Below, in pieces: positions 37,318 to 38,299 of a stretch of DNA of 64,000 bases. This DNA comes from Pseudomonas phage SW_PA2862_11_24, in the sequence record PV574406.1; one strand, given 5' to 3'. Under the pieces are notes generated by a model. The model was given only the letters and a program-made list of their open reading frames with translations, had not been told where the DNA came from and searched no databases. Made by a program: the position numbers and the translations under genes. Position 1 is the stretch's first letter, and every line of letters starts with the position of its first letter.

Positions 37318-37496
37318 CATGGCAGGGGTTATTTTCAAATTATTTTTAGATTTCTGGGAGTTTCGGCCAATATGGGCAATATGAAATTTCTCAGGAAAAG
37401 GCTCAGAATGCTCGTATAAGAGCCGTTCGAGTGTAGGTATGGTGAGCTACTACTTAGCCGTAGAAGGACAGTGTAACGCTTAATAGGAGGGTTAGA

Positions 37497-37670
37497 ATGA
37501 AGATTGACAACGGTAGCGCGTATGCGTATTGGCTAGCGGATATGAAAGAGTTTGTTTCTCAGATGGATGCCACAGAGATTGAGAAGAGGGCTTGTATAGC
37601 ATACTTAATTAGCTGGTATCAGCGAAGAGTACTGCACAGAATTAAACGGGAGGAATACGAGGCGATCTAA
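37497..37670 (+). CDS. hypothetical 57-aa protein inside the non-coding block
   Basis: RBS taggagggttagaATG. Confidence 0.25.
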   Translation: MKIDNGSAYAYWLADMKEFVSQMDATEIEKRACIAYLISWYQRRVLHRIKREEYEAI

Positions 37671-37674
37671 GCTA

Positions 37675-37768
37675 GGGACCGGACAGATTTTTAGGGACTG
37701 GATAGATTTTCACAGGCTGCAAAATTAGGAACTGGGCAGATTTTTAGGAACTGGACAGTTTTTCACAG
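37675..37768. repeat. four direct iteron-like repeats GGRACYGGRYAGATTTTTAGG/CACAG
   Basis: gggaccggacagatttttagg / gggactggatagattttcacagg / ggaactgggcagatttttagg / ggaactggacagtttttcacag. Confidence 0.5.
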
Positions 37769-37825
37769 AAGGGGATTTTTCTACAGAGGAATTTCCCCTG
37801 AAATTTAGCCGGATTTCTCAGAAGG

Positions 37826-37882
37826 GCGGATCGTTAGCAGGCTATCTAATTGGTTAGCAAGCTACCTTTAATCGTTAGCACA
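37826..37882. repeat. three GTTAGCA repeats at 21-23 bp spacing
   Basis: cgttagcagg, ggttagcaag, cgttagcaca. Confidence 0.35.
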
Positions 37883-38234
37883 CTAACTAAAAATTCCTAG
37901 GACGGACCTCAGTTGGCACGAACGTTGCAAGCCCGCACCAGTTTCCCGGGCAGGCGTAGGCCTCGACTATCCGTCGTGAAGGCGATATGTAGTTGGGGAC
38001 TCGCACCCCGCGTTTAAGATGCGCCCATTCTACTATGACAAACCCCTTTGTCAACATAATTTTTATGGCACAGTCTTTGCAATTGCAATTAGCGTGCCAG
38101 CTTAAATCTCAGGCTCCCTCGGTGTTTATCTCCGGTGCTCGGCCTCCTGCCTGCGTTGCCCGCCTGCCTGTCATTATACACAAGCTATCAAGACAAGCAA
38201 GAAAAATTATAGAGAAAAATCTACATAAAACAGG

Positions 38235-38263
38235 TTGACAGGCCTCCTTTATATATGCACAAT
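38235..38263 (+). promoter_or_regulatory. putative sigma70 promoter (TTGACA-17-CACAAT) for the first early gene
   Basis: Perfect -35 but weak -10. Confidence 0.3.
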
Positions 38264-38299
38264 GACCCCCACATTCAACGGAACGGCAGGTAAGCAGCC

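What the first reader, a model, noticed from the sequence alone, without database searches (positions are those of the whole stretch)
37321..38299. Roughly 1-kb non-coding block with iteron-like direct repeats between two terminators and the early promoters: candidate origin, pac site or genome-terminus region
Four copies of GGRACYGGRYAGATTTTTAGG/CACAG (37675-37768) and three GTTAGCA repeats (37826-37882) are present. Repeated ATTTCTCAGRAARGG and CAATATG motifs and AT-rich stretches lie at 37321-37440. Only one doubtful 57-aa ORF is in the block. The block lies exactly at the boundary between the replication/late operon end and the start of the early genes, where physical ends or terminal repeats of T7/T5-like genomes occur.
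Basis: seen in the sequence. Interest (0 to 1): 0.6.

Follow-up and report, generated by a model that had tools for sequence, protein, structure and literature searches.

The report
Conserved non-coding control block in phage
The repeats are real, but the block is not the genome end; it is a strongly conserved non-coding module found in several genera of Pseudomonas phages, carrying protein-binding repeats, sites matching the host's sigma-54 promoter consensus, backward-pointing promoters and a small structured RNA, whose exact job is still unproven.

Summary
The window is a Pakpunavirus (Pseudomonas aeruginosa myovirus, 99% identical to LPS-5 and PAK_P4).

**Observation.** The repeats are real: four 19-nt units and three 14-bp palindromes spaced 20-21 nt apart. 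They are far better conserved than the 57-aa gene beside them.

**Terminus/pac: refuted.** The mapped 1.17-1.19-kb terminal repeats of PaP1, C11 and Adele align to window ~49,626-50,786, 11 kb downstream.

**What is there.** It is a modular non-coding block, present in the same order in at least six Pseudomonas phage groups. It always lies just upstream of the first strong early promoter. Its parts are:
- the two repeat arrays;
- three perfect sigma-54 consensus elements (TGGCAC-N5-TTGCA), whose conserved blocks are kept while their spacers vary;
- two minus-strand sigma-70 promoters, one matching the RNA-seq-annotated PAK_P4as16;
- a ~70-nt core forming a hairpin with strong covariation and an invariant GGA loop.

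The core was not found in 185,579 bacterial and archaeal genomes.

**Reading.** I read it as a transcription-control and ncRNA hub that recruits host RNA polymerase (confidence 0.45). A transcription-primed or iteron origin is the main rival (0.2). One plasmid-like contig places the core next to ParA and Rep-like genes, but there is no DnaA-box enrichment, no adjacent AT-rich unwinding element and no conserved initiator gene.

The parts
37295..37312 (+). Intrinsic terminator closing the upstream early gene cluster (gp091 homologue ends at 37274)
   Evidence: GCCCGGC-GAGA-GCCGGGC followed by TTTTT. Annotated as a terminator in PAK_P4. Across relatives the stem is kept while the loop varies.
37325..37400 (.). 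Conserved AT-rich stretch holding 2x CAATATG and the first ATTTCTCAGGAAAAGG motif
   Evidence: Almost invariant in 13 Pakpunavirus copies and partly kept in the divergent phage EM. AT content is 62-68%. Function unknown.
37497..37670 (+). 57-aa gene (phrog_8175, function unknown); fast-evolving and dispensable
   Evidence: AGGAGG lies 7 nt before the ATG. Pairwise difference is 0.251, and the C-terminus SWYQRRVLHRIKREEYEAI is conserved. PAK_P4 has a premature TGA, and EM has an unrelated ORF in its place. PHROG match with E=5e-41. Small ORFs at this position in other genera belong to other PHROGs or to none.
37673..37763 (+). Array of four 19-nt direct repeats (R19, consensus GGAACTGGACAGATTTTTA), arranged 2+2
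   Evidence: The same motif occurs 3-4 times at the same relative place in EM, PAK_P3 (Nankokuvirus), PN09 (Otagovirus), Roomu-2, XD2 and ventosus. A tandem R19 pattern gave no hit in any Pseudomonas genome.
37833..37887 (.). Three 14-bp palindromes GTTAGC-NN-GCTAWC spaced 20-21 bp apart (two helical turns)
   Evidence: EM has perfect versions, GATAGCTGGCTATC and GTTAGCTCGCTAAC. Three copies with the same spacing occur in XD2, Bitten and ventosus. Related GATAGC-N3-4-GCTATC palindromes occur at 49724, 49910 and 50603 in the terminal repeat.
37914..37929 (+). Sigma-54 consensus element P1 (TGGCACGAACGTTGCA); predicted start near 37940
   Evidence: Perfect match to YTGGCACG-N4-TTGCW. Invariant in Pakpunavirus apart from TGGCAT in one copy. 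The same site sits at the same place but on the other strand in Roomu-2, XD2, Bitten and ventosus.
37893..38020 (-). Minus-strand transcript body (PAK_P4as16 homologue); the most conserved stretch of the block
   Evidence: PAK_P4 ncRNA feature 'Annotation based on RNA-Seq data' maps to window 37893-38093. Pairwise difference is 0.014. EM shows compensatory changes, GGGG/CCCC to GGAG/CUCC at 37995-38009, and the stem GCCCG/CGGGC at 37931-37951 is kept with a new loop. The 56-aa minus-strand ORF starting at 38057 is broken by stop codons in 4 of the 14 aligned copies. No Rfam match.
38027..38054 (-). Sigma-70 promoter for the minus-strand RNA (TTGACA-16-TAGAAT)
   Evidence: 11/12 match. Annotated as promoter_03 in PAK_P4. 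Kept with different spacer sequence in EM, phiPMW, Roomu-2, XD2 and ventosus (read).
38066..38099 (.). 34-bp palindrome formed by two face-to-face sigma-54 elements: P2 (+, 38066-38081) and P3 (-, 38099-38084)
   Evidence: TGGCAC-AGTCT-TTGCAATTGCAA-TTAGC-GTGCCA (I4, 32). Across relatives the -24 and -12 blocks are invariant while both 5-nt spacers vary, and the C/T position is not kept complementary. That pattern fits protein recognition rather than a hairpin. Present in Pakpunavirus, phiPMW, SYP, Roomu-2, XD2, Bitten and ventosus. Only P3 is present in PAK_P3. PN09, Kremar, L027 and L030 have an unrelated palindrome in its place.
38093..38164 (-). Core: conserved ~70-nt element with a covarying hairpin (pairs 38162-38133 ... 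38149-38143) and a GGA loop at 38147-38145
   Evidence: RNAalifold finds 8 pairs, 4 of them with compensatory changes. 97% of cells are paired against 82.5% in shuffles (0/500), covariation is 0.40 against 0.11 (0/500), and slid controls give 21-38%. Stem variants include GGCU/AGCC, GGUC/GACC, GACC/GGUC, GUAC/GUAC, GCGC/GCGC, GACG/CGUC and GCCC/GGGC. The covariance model finds exactly one copy in the window and one strong match in each of the 15 other phage loci searched (L027 also has a second, weak match). Nothing was found in 185,579 bacterial and archaeal genomes.
38173..38200 (-). Predicted minus-strand sigma-70 promoter in front of the core (-35 TTGCTT 38200-38195, 16-nt spacer, -10 TATAAT 38178-38173)
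   Evidence: Read. A TTGnnn-16/17-TAnnnT pair sits at the same distance from the core in 16 of the 17 phage sequences compared, with unrelated spacer sequences (PAK_P3 has only a weak -10, CATTCT). The conserved plus-strand 'TATTATAC' is the complement of the -10. No direct transcript evidence. The -35 in this window is weak (3/6), so the scan did not list it.
38235..38263 (+). First sigma-70 early promoter of the downstream early cluster (TTGACA-17-CACAAT); the SprT-like gene starts at 38300
   Evidence: Annotated as promoter_04 in PAK_P4. SprT-like Pfam match with E=4e-12.

Best explanation
The block is a conserved, modular, non-coding control region inside the early gene region of a Pakpunavirus. 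It is not a genome end. It works mainly by recruiting host RNA polymerase. Two sigma-70 promoters point backwards, against the flanking early genes. They make non-coding minus-strand RNAs: the as16 RNA seen in PAK_P4 RNA-seq and, as predicted here, a structured core RNA with a GGA-loop hairpin. Three sigma-54 consensus elements load sigma-54 RNA polymerase. The phased palindromes and the 19-nt array are binding sites for a still unknown dimeric or oligomeric DNA-binding protein, placed like the enhancer of a sigma-54 promoter. Together they would insulate the upstream early cluster from the downstream one. They would also tune or condition transcription, and possibly an RNA-based host-takeover function, at the head of the strong early promoters. 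Shown: the repeats, their conservation, the cross-genus module, the consensus matches, the covarying hairpin, and a minus-strand RNA in a 99%-identical phage. Inferred: sigma-54 binding, enhancer function of the repeats, transcription of the core, and the regulatory outcome.
For: Identity and position: 99% identical to PAK_P4 and LPS-5. The block lies between a terminator and promoter_04 within the RNA-seq-defined early region gp080-gp124. Selection: the non-coding parts differ 3-18 times less than the adjacent ORF. Module conservation: the same order and spacing of R19 array, palindromes, sigma-54 site, minus-strand promoter, sigma-54 palindrome, core and early promoter occurs in 11 phages of at least 6 groups. 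Sigma-54: there are 5 perfect TGGCAC-N5-TTGCW matches in 64 kb, and 11 with up to 1 mismatch against 1.98 expected (0/100 shuffles). The slightly looser pattern TGGCAY-N5-WTGCW gives 8 hits, all in this block or in the terminal repeat (expected 0.2). The blocks are kept while the spacers vary. Precedent: phage YuA uses a sigma-54-like promoter (PMC10914365). Minus-strand RNA: the as16 ncRNA and its promoter are annotated from RNA-seq, and that promoter is kept across genera. Core RNA: covariation statistics, a conserved minus-strand promoter in front of it, and a single copy per genome. No conserved ORF in the block: the minus-strand ORF is broken in 4 relatives.
Against: There is no direct evidence that sigma-54 binds or that any sigma-54 promoter fires. 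PAK_P4 RNA-seq annotation lists only as16 here. No enhancer-binding protein was found among the 10 large phage ORFs tested. The tandem R19 pattern is absent from Pseudomonas genomes, so a host activator with similar sites is not evident. Sigma-54 site 1 is inverted between genera at the same position, which argues that binding matters more than the transcript it would drive. Otagovirus-like phages keep the R19 array and the core but have no perfect sigma-54 consensus element (PN09 has only a one-mismatch site at the P1 position), so sigma-54 cannot be essential to the whole module. The core hairpin is strand-neutral apart from one G-U pair. The as16 annotation starts at 38093, not at the predicted core promoter start near 38166. 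Single-sequence folds are not exceptional: z is -0.5 for the minus strand of as16 and +1.4 for the plus strand of the core.
Confidence: 0.45

Rival explanations
1. The block is the phage origin of replication. The repeat arrays bind an initiator or host factor. Host RNA polymerase transcripts from the backward promoters prime or open the DNA for the T7-like primase-helicase, as at the T7 primary origin or T4 oriF/oriG.
For: There are phased direct repeats of 19-21 bp. The replisome is T7-like (Toprim plus DnaB-like helicase at 15204-17063), and no initiator gene is known, which fits transcription-primed initiation. The conserved promoters give transcripts with no coding role. The minus-strand core RNA is G-rich. 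In the plasmid-like viral contig L028, the core and GWTAGC-like repeats lie in the intergenic region upstream of a ParA gene, next to HTH_36 and RepL-like proteins and further iteron-like repeats. The block shares palindromes and sigma-54-like sites with the terminal repeat.
Against: Cumulative GC skew rises straight through 37-38 kb. DnaA boxes are not enriched: there is one 1-mismatch box, which coincides with a promoter -10. No AT-rich tract adjoins the repeats; the only 72-75% AT stretch is at 38180-38240. The neighbouring small ORF is not conserved between genera and is truncated in PAK_P4. The PaP1 authors placed a putative origin at the genome end, though from skew alone.
Confidence: 0.2
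2. The sigma-54 elements are DNA docking or decoy sites rather than working promoters. Silent sigma-54 polymerase complexes bound here and in the terminal repeat act as roadblocks or insulators, or they titrate the scarce host sigma-54 as phage DNA accumulates.
For: All 8 matches to TGGCAY-N5-WTGCW fall in two mostly non-coding regions. Site 1 keeps its position but flips strand between genera. P2 and P3 overlap face to face, so only one polymerase can bind, in either orientation. No phage activator protein was found. From established knowledge, sigma-54 holoenzyme forms stable closed complexes without an activator (E. coli mapping in PMC4591121, listed).
Against: Nothing here measures binding or titration. 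Otagovirus-like relatives have no perfect sigma-54 consensus element (PN09 has only a one-mismatch site at the P1 position). Two of the terminal-repeat matches lie inside the HNH ORF and reflect a repeated peptide (TSNN), so they may be incidental.
Confidence: 0.12
3. The repeats are a centromere-like or DNA-organising site (a partition or anchoring site) bound by a ParB-like or ribbon-helix-helix protein, shared between the block and the terminal repeats.
For: GWTAGC palindromes occur only in the block and in the terminal-repeat region. In L028 similar repeats lie upstream of ParA and a small 98-aa protein, the usual place for a type Ib centromere.
Against: Neither ParA nor ParB was seen among the ORFs tested in the window. 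A virulent phage with a burst in under 20 min has no obvious need for partition. The evidence rests on a single contig.
Confidence: 0.05
4. The block is a T5-like injection-stop signal that pauses DNA entry after the early genes at the right end have entered.
For: It is a large non-coding stretch rich in direct and inverted repeats about 12.5 kb from the right terminal repeat, bounding the cluster with the repeated strong early promoters. This resembles the repeat-rich stop region of T5 (recalled from my own knowledge, not tested here).
Against: Genes on the far side of the block (gp080-gp091) are also early in PAK_P4. Nothing is known about which end enters first. No sequence similarity to T5 was seen (one search found Pseudomonas phages only).
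Confidence: 0.04
5. The block is the physical genome end, a terminal repeat or a pac site.
For: Only its non-coding, repeat-rich appearance.
Against: Experimentally or PhageTerm-defined ends of PaP1, C11 and Adele (93-94% identical over that region) map to window ~49626-50786. Six records end or start exactly there. None of the records listed for the block ends or starts within it.
Confidence: 0.02

Closest known systems
PAK_P4as16 and the flanking promoters and terminator annotated in Pseudomonas phage PAK_P4 (KC862300; Blasdel et al. 2017, PMC5563952)
   Same: It is the same locus at 99% identity. A minus-strand RNA, its sigma-70 promoter, the upstream terminator and the downstream early promoter are already annotated from RNA-seq.
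   Different: The published work treats as16 as one of 17 antisense RNAs. A later review lists its function as undetermined (PMC12197685). As16 is not antisense to any gene. The repeats, the sigma-54 elements, the core hairpin and the cross-genus conservation are not described in the papers I could search.
Sigma-54 promoter with an upstream enhancer of phased palindromes (for example the three-site NorR enhancer or NtrC at glnAp2), and the sigma-54-like promoter of phage YuA
   Same: There are perfect -24/-12 elements. Three dyad sites two helical turns apart are centred about 60, 80 and 100 bp upstream of the predicted P1 start. YuA shows that a Pseudomonas phage can use sigma-54.
   Different: No activator has been identified. 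The site orientation flips between genera. Two sites overlap face to face. Some related phages keep the arrays without perfect sigma-54 consensus sites.
Iteron-type and transcription-primed origins (lambda ori with four 19-bp iterons, plasmid iteron origins, the T7 primary origin, T4 oriF/oriG)
   Same: There are four 19-nt direct repeats and three phased 20-nt units, promoters with non-coding transcripts, and a T7-like replisome. One plasmid-like relative has the core beside Par and Rep genes.
   Different: There is no adjacent initiator gene, no AT-rich unwinding element next to the repeats, no DnaA-box enrichment and no skew change.
GGA-loop regulatory RNAs that sequester RsmA/CsrA (RsmY, RsmZ)
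   Same: On the minus strand the core has an invariant GGA in the loop of a short covarying hairpin, plus two more conserved GGAG motifs within about 45 nt.
   Different: There is no Rfam match, no clear terminator, and only one GGA lies in a proven loop. GGAG is also simply a Shine-Dalgarno-like sequence, and the strand is not proven.

Membership tests
Genome terminus / direct terminal repeat | Coincides with the physical ends mapped in the same or closely related phages | tested here: not met
   The ends of PaP1, C11 and Adele map to window ~49626-50786 (PMC3652863, PMC5175280, PMC12846349).
Genome terminus / direct terminal repeat | Sequence duplicated at both ends of full-length records | tested here: not met
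   Records that hold both repeat copies (C11, Adele, TIETA, GEC_PNG3) show two places for 49400-51000. In both searches of the block, every record listed shows a single place.
Iteron-type replication origin | Three or more direct repeats of 17-22 bp in helical phase | tested here: met
   4 x 19 nt and 3 x 20-21 nt.
Iteron-type replication origin | AT-rich unwinding element adjoining the repeats | tested here: not met
   AT content is 50-68% around the repeats. The only 72-75% tract lies 300-400 nt away at 38180-38240.
Iteron-type replication origin | Cognate initiator gene adjacent and conserved | tested here: not met
   The neighbouring small ORF is truncated in PAK_P4, replaced in EM, and belongs to different PHROGs in other genera. 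Only the plasmid-like contig L028 has RepL-like and HTH_36 genes nearby.
Iteron-type replication origin | DnaA boxes or a skew inflection | tested here: not met
   One 1-mismatch box out of 15 in the window. Cumulative skew is monotonic across the block.
Iteron-type replication origin | Supports initiation of DNA synthesis | not testable with these tools
   Needs marker-frequency analysis or an origin-cloning assay.
Sigma-54 (RpoN) dependent promoter | GG and GC dinucleotides 10 bp apart within TGGCAC-N5-TTGCW | tested here: met
   Three perfect matches in the block: 37914(+), 38066(+) and 38084-38099(-).
Sigma-54 (RpoN) dependent promoter | -24/-12 blocks conserved while the spacer is free to vary | tested here: met
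   Alignment of 14 Pakpunavirus copies and 10 phages of other groups.
Sigma-54 (RpoN) dependent promoter | Enhancer sites for an AAA+ activator within a few hundred bp | tested here: inconclusive
   Three phased palindromes and the R19 array are suitably placed for P1. However, they match no activator site that I could test. No activator domain was found in 10 large phage ORFs, and no R19 arrays occur in Pseudomonas genomes.
Sigma-54 (RpoN) dependent promoter | Transcript starting about 12 nt after the -12 element, dependent on rpoN | not testable with these tools
   Only the coarse as16 annotation exists; its 5' end at 38093 lies upstream of the sigma-70 start and near the predicted P3 start at about 38072.
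Known RNA families (Rfam 15) | Covariance-model match at or near the gathering score | tested here: not met
   The best hit has E=0.36 to a microRNA model, far below gathering. No tRNA or tmRNA was found.
Structured non-coding RNA (new family candidate: core) | Base pairs maintained by compensatory changes beyond controls | tested here: met
   (0/500 shuffles; slid controls 21-38% paired against 97%).
Structured non-coding RNA (new family candidate: core) | Evidence of transcription of the modelled strand | tested here: inconclusive
   A conserved minus-strand sigma-70 promoter is predicted in 16 of the 17 sequences compared; PAK_P3 has only a weak -10. The RNA-seq-based as16 feature begins downstream of the core.
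RsmA/CsrA-sequestering RNA | Several GGA motifs presented in hairpin loops, plus a terminator | tested here: inconclusive
   One invariant GGA loop and two unstructured GGAG motifs. No terminator was recognised. Binding is not testable here.

The most novel reading that the evidence does not exclude
Virulent Pseudomonas phages of several genera share an undescribed host-takeover module. It comprises high-affinity, orientation-independent docking sites for the scarce host sigma-54 polymerase (here and in the terminal repeats) and a new structured small RNA with an invariant GGA loop. Together these would titrate or redirect host regulators (sigma-54 and possibly RsmA-type proteins or ribosomes) early in infection.
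Probability: 0.15. Interest if true: 0.8.

Novelty: new variant of a known kind. Interest (0 to 1): 0.6.

Why it matters
Pakpunaviruses are among the most widely used therapeutic Pseudomonas phages, yet their early region is almost entirely of unknown function. This block is the most strongly conserved non-coding DNA in that region. It is shared with phages of P. putida, P. syringae, P. protegens and P. plecoglossicida. If its sigma-54 sites are functional, infection would be coupled to a host sigma factor that controls motility, nitrogen use, RNA repair and secretion. That would make phage performance depend on host physiology, and on rpoN mutations common in chronic-infection isolates. The core hairpin is a candidate new phage RNA family. 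If the block is instead the origin, it would be the first origin defined for this family and would be useful for phage engineering. It also gives annotators a concrete warning: gene callers currently fill the block with 30-90-aa 'hypothetical proteins' that are not conserved as ORFs.

Tried and rejected
- **Rfam and tRNA scans.** Rfam at E up to 10 on both strands gave only meaningless microRNA and lncRNA matches. ARAGORN found no tRNA or tmRNA in the whole window. The 'tRNA-Gly' shown under the phiMK hit is a mis-joined feature spanning 61 kb.
- **Terminus hypothesis.** Rejected by mapping the PaP1, C11 and Adele ends.
- **Protein-coding reading of the ultra-conserved 37893-38057 stretch.** The 56-aa minus-strand ORF has stop codons in PsIn, LCK69, B31 and Ps25, and the few substitutions show no third-position bias. 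It has no Pfam or PHROG match. A shorter peptide from an internal start cannot be excluded.
- **The small upstream ORF as the repeat-binding partner.** Rejected, because it is non-homologous between genera and disrupted in PAK_P4.
- **The 34-bp palindrome as a plain RNA hairpin or terminator.** Rejected as the main reading. The spacers are not complementary, the C/T position is not kept paired, no U-run follows, and single non-palindromic copies of the same consensus occur elsewhere.
- **The core as a sigma-70 or sigma-54 promoter on the plus strand.** The spacing does not fit (read).
- **Host origin of the core or of R19 arrays.** The core had zero hits in 185,579 genomes, and the R19 tandem pattern had no Pseudomonas hit.
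- **DnaA boxes and an AT-rich unwinding element.** Not enriched and not adjacent.
- **Inversion of the whole as16 module between genera.** Only the sigma-54 site is inverted.
- **Supplementary tables.** The tables of the PAK_P4 and ONT-cappable-seq papers, which would give expression and start sites, are not held.
- **The PaP1 'hard-to-sequence' paper.** It has no bearing on this locus.
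Full report
**What the window is.** The 1.2 kb around the finding is 99.8% identical to Pseudomonas phage LPS-5 and 99.1% identical to PAK_P4. It matches 119 phage records, all from Pseudomonas and all Pakpunavirus-like. PAK_P4 carries an RNA-seq-based annotation. After mapping (window = PAK_P4 locus + 33199), that annotation places these features in window coordinates:
- a terminator at 37295-37312;
- a minus-strand 'putative antisense RNA' (PAK_P4as16) at 37893-38093;
- the promoter of that RNA at 38054-38027;
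- a plus-strand promoter at 38235-38256;
- the SprT-like gene at 38300.

The PAK_P4 paper defines the early region as gp080-gp124. The block therefore lies inside the early region, between two early clusters, and not at a late/early boundary.

**Checking the observation.** The repeats are present as described.
- Four 19-nt units lie at 37673-37763, arranged 2+2.
- Three 20-nt units lie at 37830-37891. Read closely, the latter are 14-bp palindromes GTTAGC-NN-GCTAWC spaced 20-21 bp apart.
- The CAATATG pair and the two ATTTCTCAG motifs are also there.

The repeats are under selection. In an alignment of 14 Pakpunavirus copies, mean pairwise difference among 12 of them is as follows:

| Segment | Mean pairwise difference |
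|---|---|
| 57-aa ORF | 0.251 |
| ORF leader | 0.166 |
| 19-nt array | 0.057 |
| Palindromes | 0.036 |
| 37892-38026 | 0.014 |

The ORF itself is probably real. It has a strong Shine-Dalgarno, a conserved C-terminus and a match to phrog_8175. It is also dispensable: PAK_P4 has a premature stop and phage EM has a different ORF in its place.

**The terminus and pac readings.**
- PaP1 has a 1190-bp terminal redundancy shown by run-off sequencing (PMC3652863).
- C11 has 1173-bp terminal direct repeats (PMC5175280).
- Adele has 1165-bp repeats by PhageTerm (PMC12846349).
- The PaP1 record ends at window 50779 and restarts at 50780.
- The records of C11, Adele, TIETA, GEC_PNG3, PaP1 and Zigelbrucke all end at window 50779-50786, and Ab15 starts at about 49613.
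- The annotated repeat_regions of C11 and Adele correspond to about 49626-50786.

The physical ends are thus 11.3 kb downstream of the block. Cumulative GC skew rises smoothly through the block and turns only near 46-50 kb.

**Sigma-54 elements.** Reading the inverted repeats showed that they are made of the sigma-54 promoter consensus.
- A search for TGGCAC-N5-TTGCW finds perfect matches at 37914(+), 38066(+) and 38084-38099(-).
- It finds two more perfect matches in the terminal repeat. Allowing one mismatch gives 11 matches against 1.98 expected (0 of 100 shuffles).
- A slightly looser pattern gives 8 hits, all in the block or at 49749-50697, against 0.2 expected.
- P1 and P3 match the extended consensus YTGGCACG-N4-TTGCW (consensus recalled from established knowledge).
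- P2 and P3 overlap face to face in a 34-bp palindrome.
- Across relatives the TGGCA(C/T) and TTGCA blocks are invariant while the two 5-nt spacers change freely.
- The C/T position is not kept complementary. That is the signature of protein recognition, not of a hairpin.
- The library I could search holds no report of sigma-54 in these phages. It does record a sigma-54-like promoter in phage YuA.

**The module in other genera.** Sensitive blastn and pattern scans found homologous non-coding blocks in other phages:
- EM, a divergent Pakpunavirus;
- PAK_P3 (Nankokuvirus);
- PN09 and Kremar (Otagovirus-like);
- phiPMW (Plaisancevirus);
- vB_PpS_SYP, Roomu-2, XD2, Bitten and ventosus;
- three IMG/VR contigs.

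The order of parts is the same in each:
1. terminator after a small ORF;
2. R19 repeats;
3. three palindromes;
4. a sigma-54 site;
5. about 150-160 bp later, a minus-strand sigma-70 promoter and the sigma-54 palindrome;
6. about 57 bp later, the core;
7. an A-rich spacer;
8. the first strong early promoter.

There are informative differences.
- Sigma-54 site 1 lies on the plus strand in Pakpunavirus but on the minus strand, at the same place, in Roomu-2, XD2, Bitten and ventosus. Only the site itself is inverted.
- PAK_P3 keeps only the minus-strand half of the palindrome. It shares a further plus-strand site with phiPMW and SYP.
- Otagovirus-like phages have no perfect sigma-54 consensus element; PN09 has only a one-mismatch site at the P1 position. 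At the palindrome position they carry an unrelated palindrome.

**The core.** The ~70 nt at 38093-38164 is the part shared by all these phages.
- On the minus strand it is preceded, in 16 of the 17 sequences compared, by a TTGnnn-16/17-TAnnnT promoter with unrelated spacer sequence; PAK_P3 has only a weak -10 (CATTCT). In the window the -35 is at 38200-38195 and the -10, TATAAT, at 38178-38173.
- RNAalifold on 17 sequences predicts an irregular hairpin of 8 pairs, 4 of them with compensatory changes.
- In the pair count, 97% of cells are paired against 82.5% in shuffles (0/500). The covariation score is 0.40 against 0.11 (0/500). Partners slid by 1-3 columns give only 21-38% pairing.
- The apical stem takes at least eight different sequences, while the loop always contains GGA on the minus strand (UCC on the plus strand).
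- Two more GGAG motifs follow.
- A covariance model finds exactly one copy in the 64-kb window and one strong match in each of the 15 other phage loci searched; L027 also gives a second, weak match.
- An exact-pattern scan of 185,579 bacterial and archaeal genomes found none.
- The structure is strand-neutral except for one G-U pair. Assigning it to the minus strand therefore rests on the conserved promoter.
- The RNA-seq-based as16 feature starts downstream of the core, at 38093.

**The as16 body.** The stretch 37892-38026 is nearly invariant.
- EM shows a compensatory change in the hairpin at 37995-38009. It also has a changed loop on a preserved stem at 37931-37951.
- The 56-aa minus-strand ORF starting at 38057 is interrupted in 4 of the 14 aligned copies, and it has no family match.
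- Single-sequence folding is unremarkable for the minus strand (z = -0.5). It is moderately good for the plus strand downstream of P1 (z = -2.8), where three G-U pairs favour the plus strand.
- A sense/antisense pair (P1 transcript against as16) is therefore possible but unproven.

**Origin or regulatory hub.**

Points for an origin:
- The repeats are phased.
- The conserved promoters have non-coding products.
- The replisome is T7-like (primase-helicase at 15204-17063).
- The palindromes and sigma-54-like sites are shared with the terminal repeat.
- In contig L028 the core and GWTAGC-like repeats sit in the leader region of a ParA operon, beside HTH_36 and RepL-like proteins.

Points against an origin:
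- There is no skew turn at the block.
- DnaA boxes are not enriched and there is no adjacent AT-rich element.
- There is no conserved initiator gene.

Points for a transcription and ncRNA hub:
- A minus-strand RNA is demonstrated in PAK_P4.
- Three kinds of promoter are conserved.
- The hairpin covaries.
- The block sits at a fixed position at the head of the early promoters.

Its weaknesses:
- No activator protein was found.
- R19 arrays are absent from Pseudomonas genomes.
- The strand flip of site 1 hints that binding, not the transcript, is what is selected.

I therefore give:
- 0.45 to the control-hub reading;
- 0.20 to the origin reading;
- 0.12 to a pure sigma-54 docking or decoy role;
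- small weights to the centromere-like, injection-stop and terminus readings.

**Novelty.** The locus is partly annotated in PAK_P4 (as16, promoters, terminator). The following are not described in the literature I could search:
- the repeat arrays as conserved elements;
- the sigma-54 consensus cluster;
- its twin in the terminal repeat;
- the cross-genus module;
- the covarying core.

I file it as a new variant of a known kind: a phage early-region regulatory and ncRNA locus. A minority possibility is that it is something more unusual.

Noticed in passing
window 49626-50786: This is the direct terminal repeat of the genome, by homology to C11, Adele and PaP1. It contains an HNH endonuclease-like ORF (49956-50558, no Pfam hit), five sigma-54-like matches, and GATAGC-N3-4-GCTATC palindromes at 49724, 49910 and 50603 (plus relaxed copies at 49452 and 50702). 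It therefore shares two motif classes with the block.
   Followed up: partly
window 38773, 40318, 42783, 45522, 46126, 48055, 48345: A ~45-nt element holding a strong sigma-70 promoter (TTGACA-16-TAGAAT) is repeated at least seven times along the downstream early cluster. The copies correspond to PAK_P4 promoters 05-08.
   Followed up: partly
window 49962-49977 and 50241-50256 (minus strand): Two of the sigma-54-like matches lie inside the HNH ORF. They share a longer repeat, TTGGCAYGRTTRTTGCTTGTC, that encodes the peptide TSNN(H/R)A twice, so they may be coding repeats rather than binding sites.
   Followed up: no
L028 (IMG/VR UViG_3300028786_000012), 4600-8100: This 46.8-kb viral contig carries the core and GWTAGC-like repeats, plus its own (C/T)ACAGGGGTC repeats. 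They lie upstream of a ParA ATPase, a 98-aa protein, an HTH_36 protein and a T5orf172/RepL-like protein. It looks like a phage-plasmid replication and partition region.
   Followed up: partly
window 9262-10404 (-) and 60304-61218 (-): The phage encodes two RNA ligases, one with PHA02142 OB-fold plus RNA_ligase domains and one T4 Rnl1-like. This suggests RNA repair against host anticodon nucleases.
   Followed up: no
L001 (PAK_P4) about 4397-4402, equivalent to window about 37596-37601: In PAK_P4 the 57-aa gene carries a premature TGA (…RAW*), which explains why it is unannotated there.
   Followed up: yes
L034 (PAK_P3) 6947-6962; L014 (phiPMW) 2671-2686; L015 (SYP) 2685-2700: A further plus-strand sigma-54 consensus element, followed by a conserved TACGCGTAYRCG motif, lies about 70 nt upstream of the early sigma-70 promoter in Nankokuvirus, Plaisancevirus and SYP. 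EM, PN09, Roomu-2 and XD2 keep the downstream motif without the sigma-54 element. This window lacks both.
   Followed up: partly
L034 (PAK_P3) 6565-6590: The first R19 copy in PAK_P3 overlaps the stop codon of gp080, a CxxC...CxxC zinc-ribbon-like 70-aa protein (phrog_11927).
   Followed up: no
L027 249-307 (minus strand): A second, weak match to the core covariance model (27 bits, E about 1e-5) lies about 7.6 kb from the main copy in one IMG/VR contig.
   Followed up: no
L002 (phiMK, KU761955) features 'tRNA-Gly' 6787-67912 and 'terminator' 5304-53863: Two features in the public record span tens of kilobases, evidently from mis-joined coordinates. They produce spurious 'tRNA-Gly' labels under BLAST hits.
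   Followed up: yes
window 38040-38066 and EM L016 2853-2880: A hairpin sits over the -35 and spacer of the minus-strand sigma-70 promoter. It is GACAAA-CCCC-TTTGTC here and CCGGC-ATCA-GCCGG in EM. It is conserved in position but not in sequence, and a T-rich run follows on the plus strand. It could be a plus-strand terminator for a P1 transcript.
   Followed up: no
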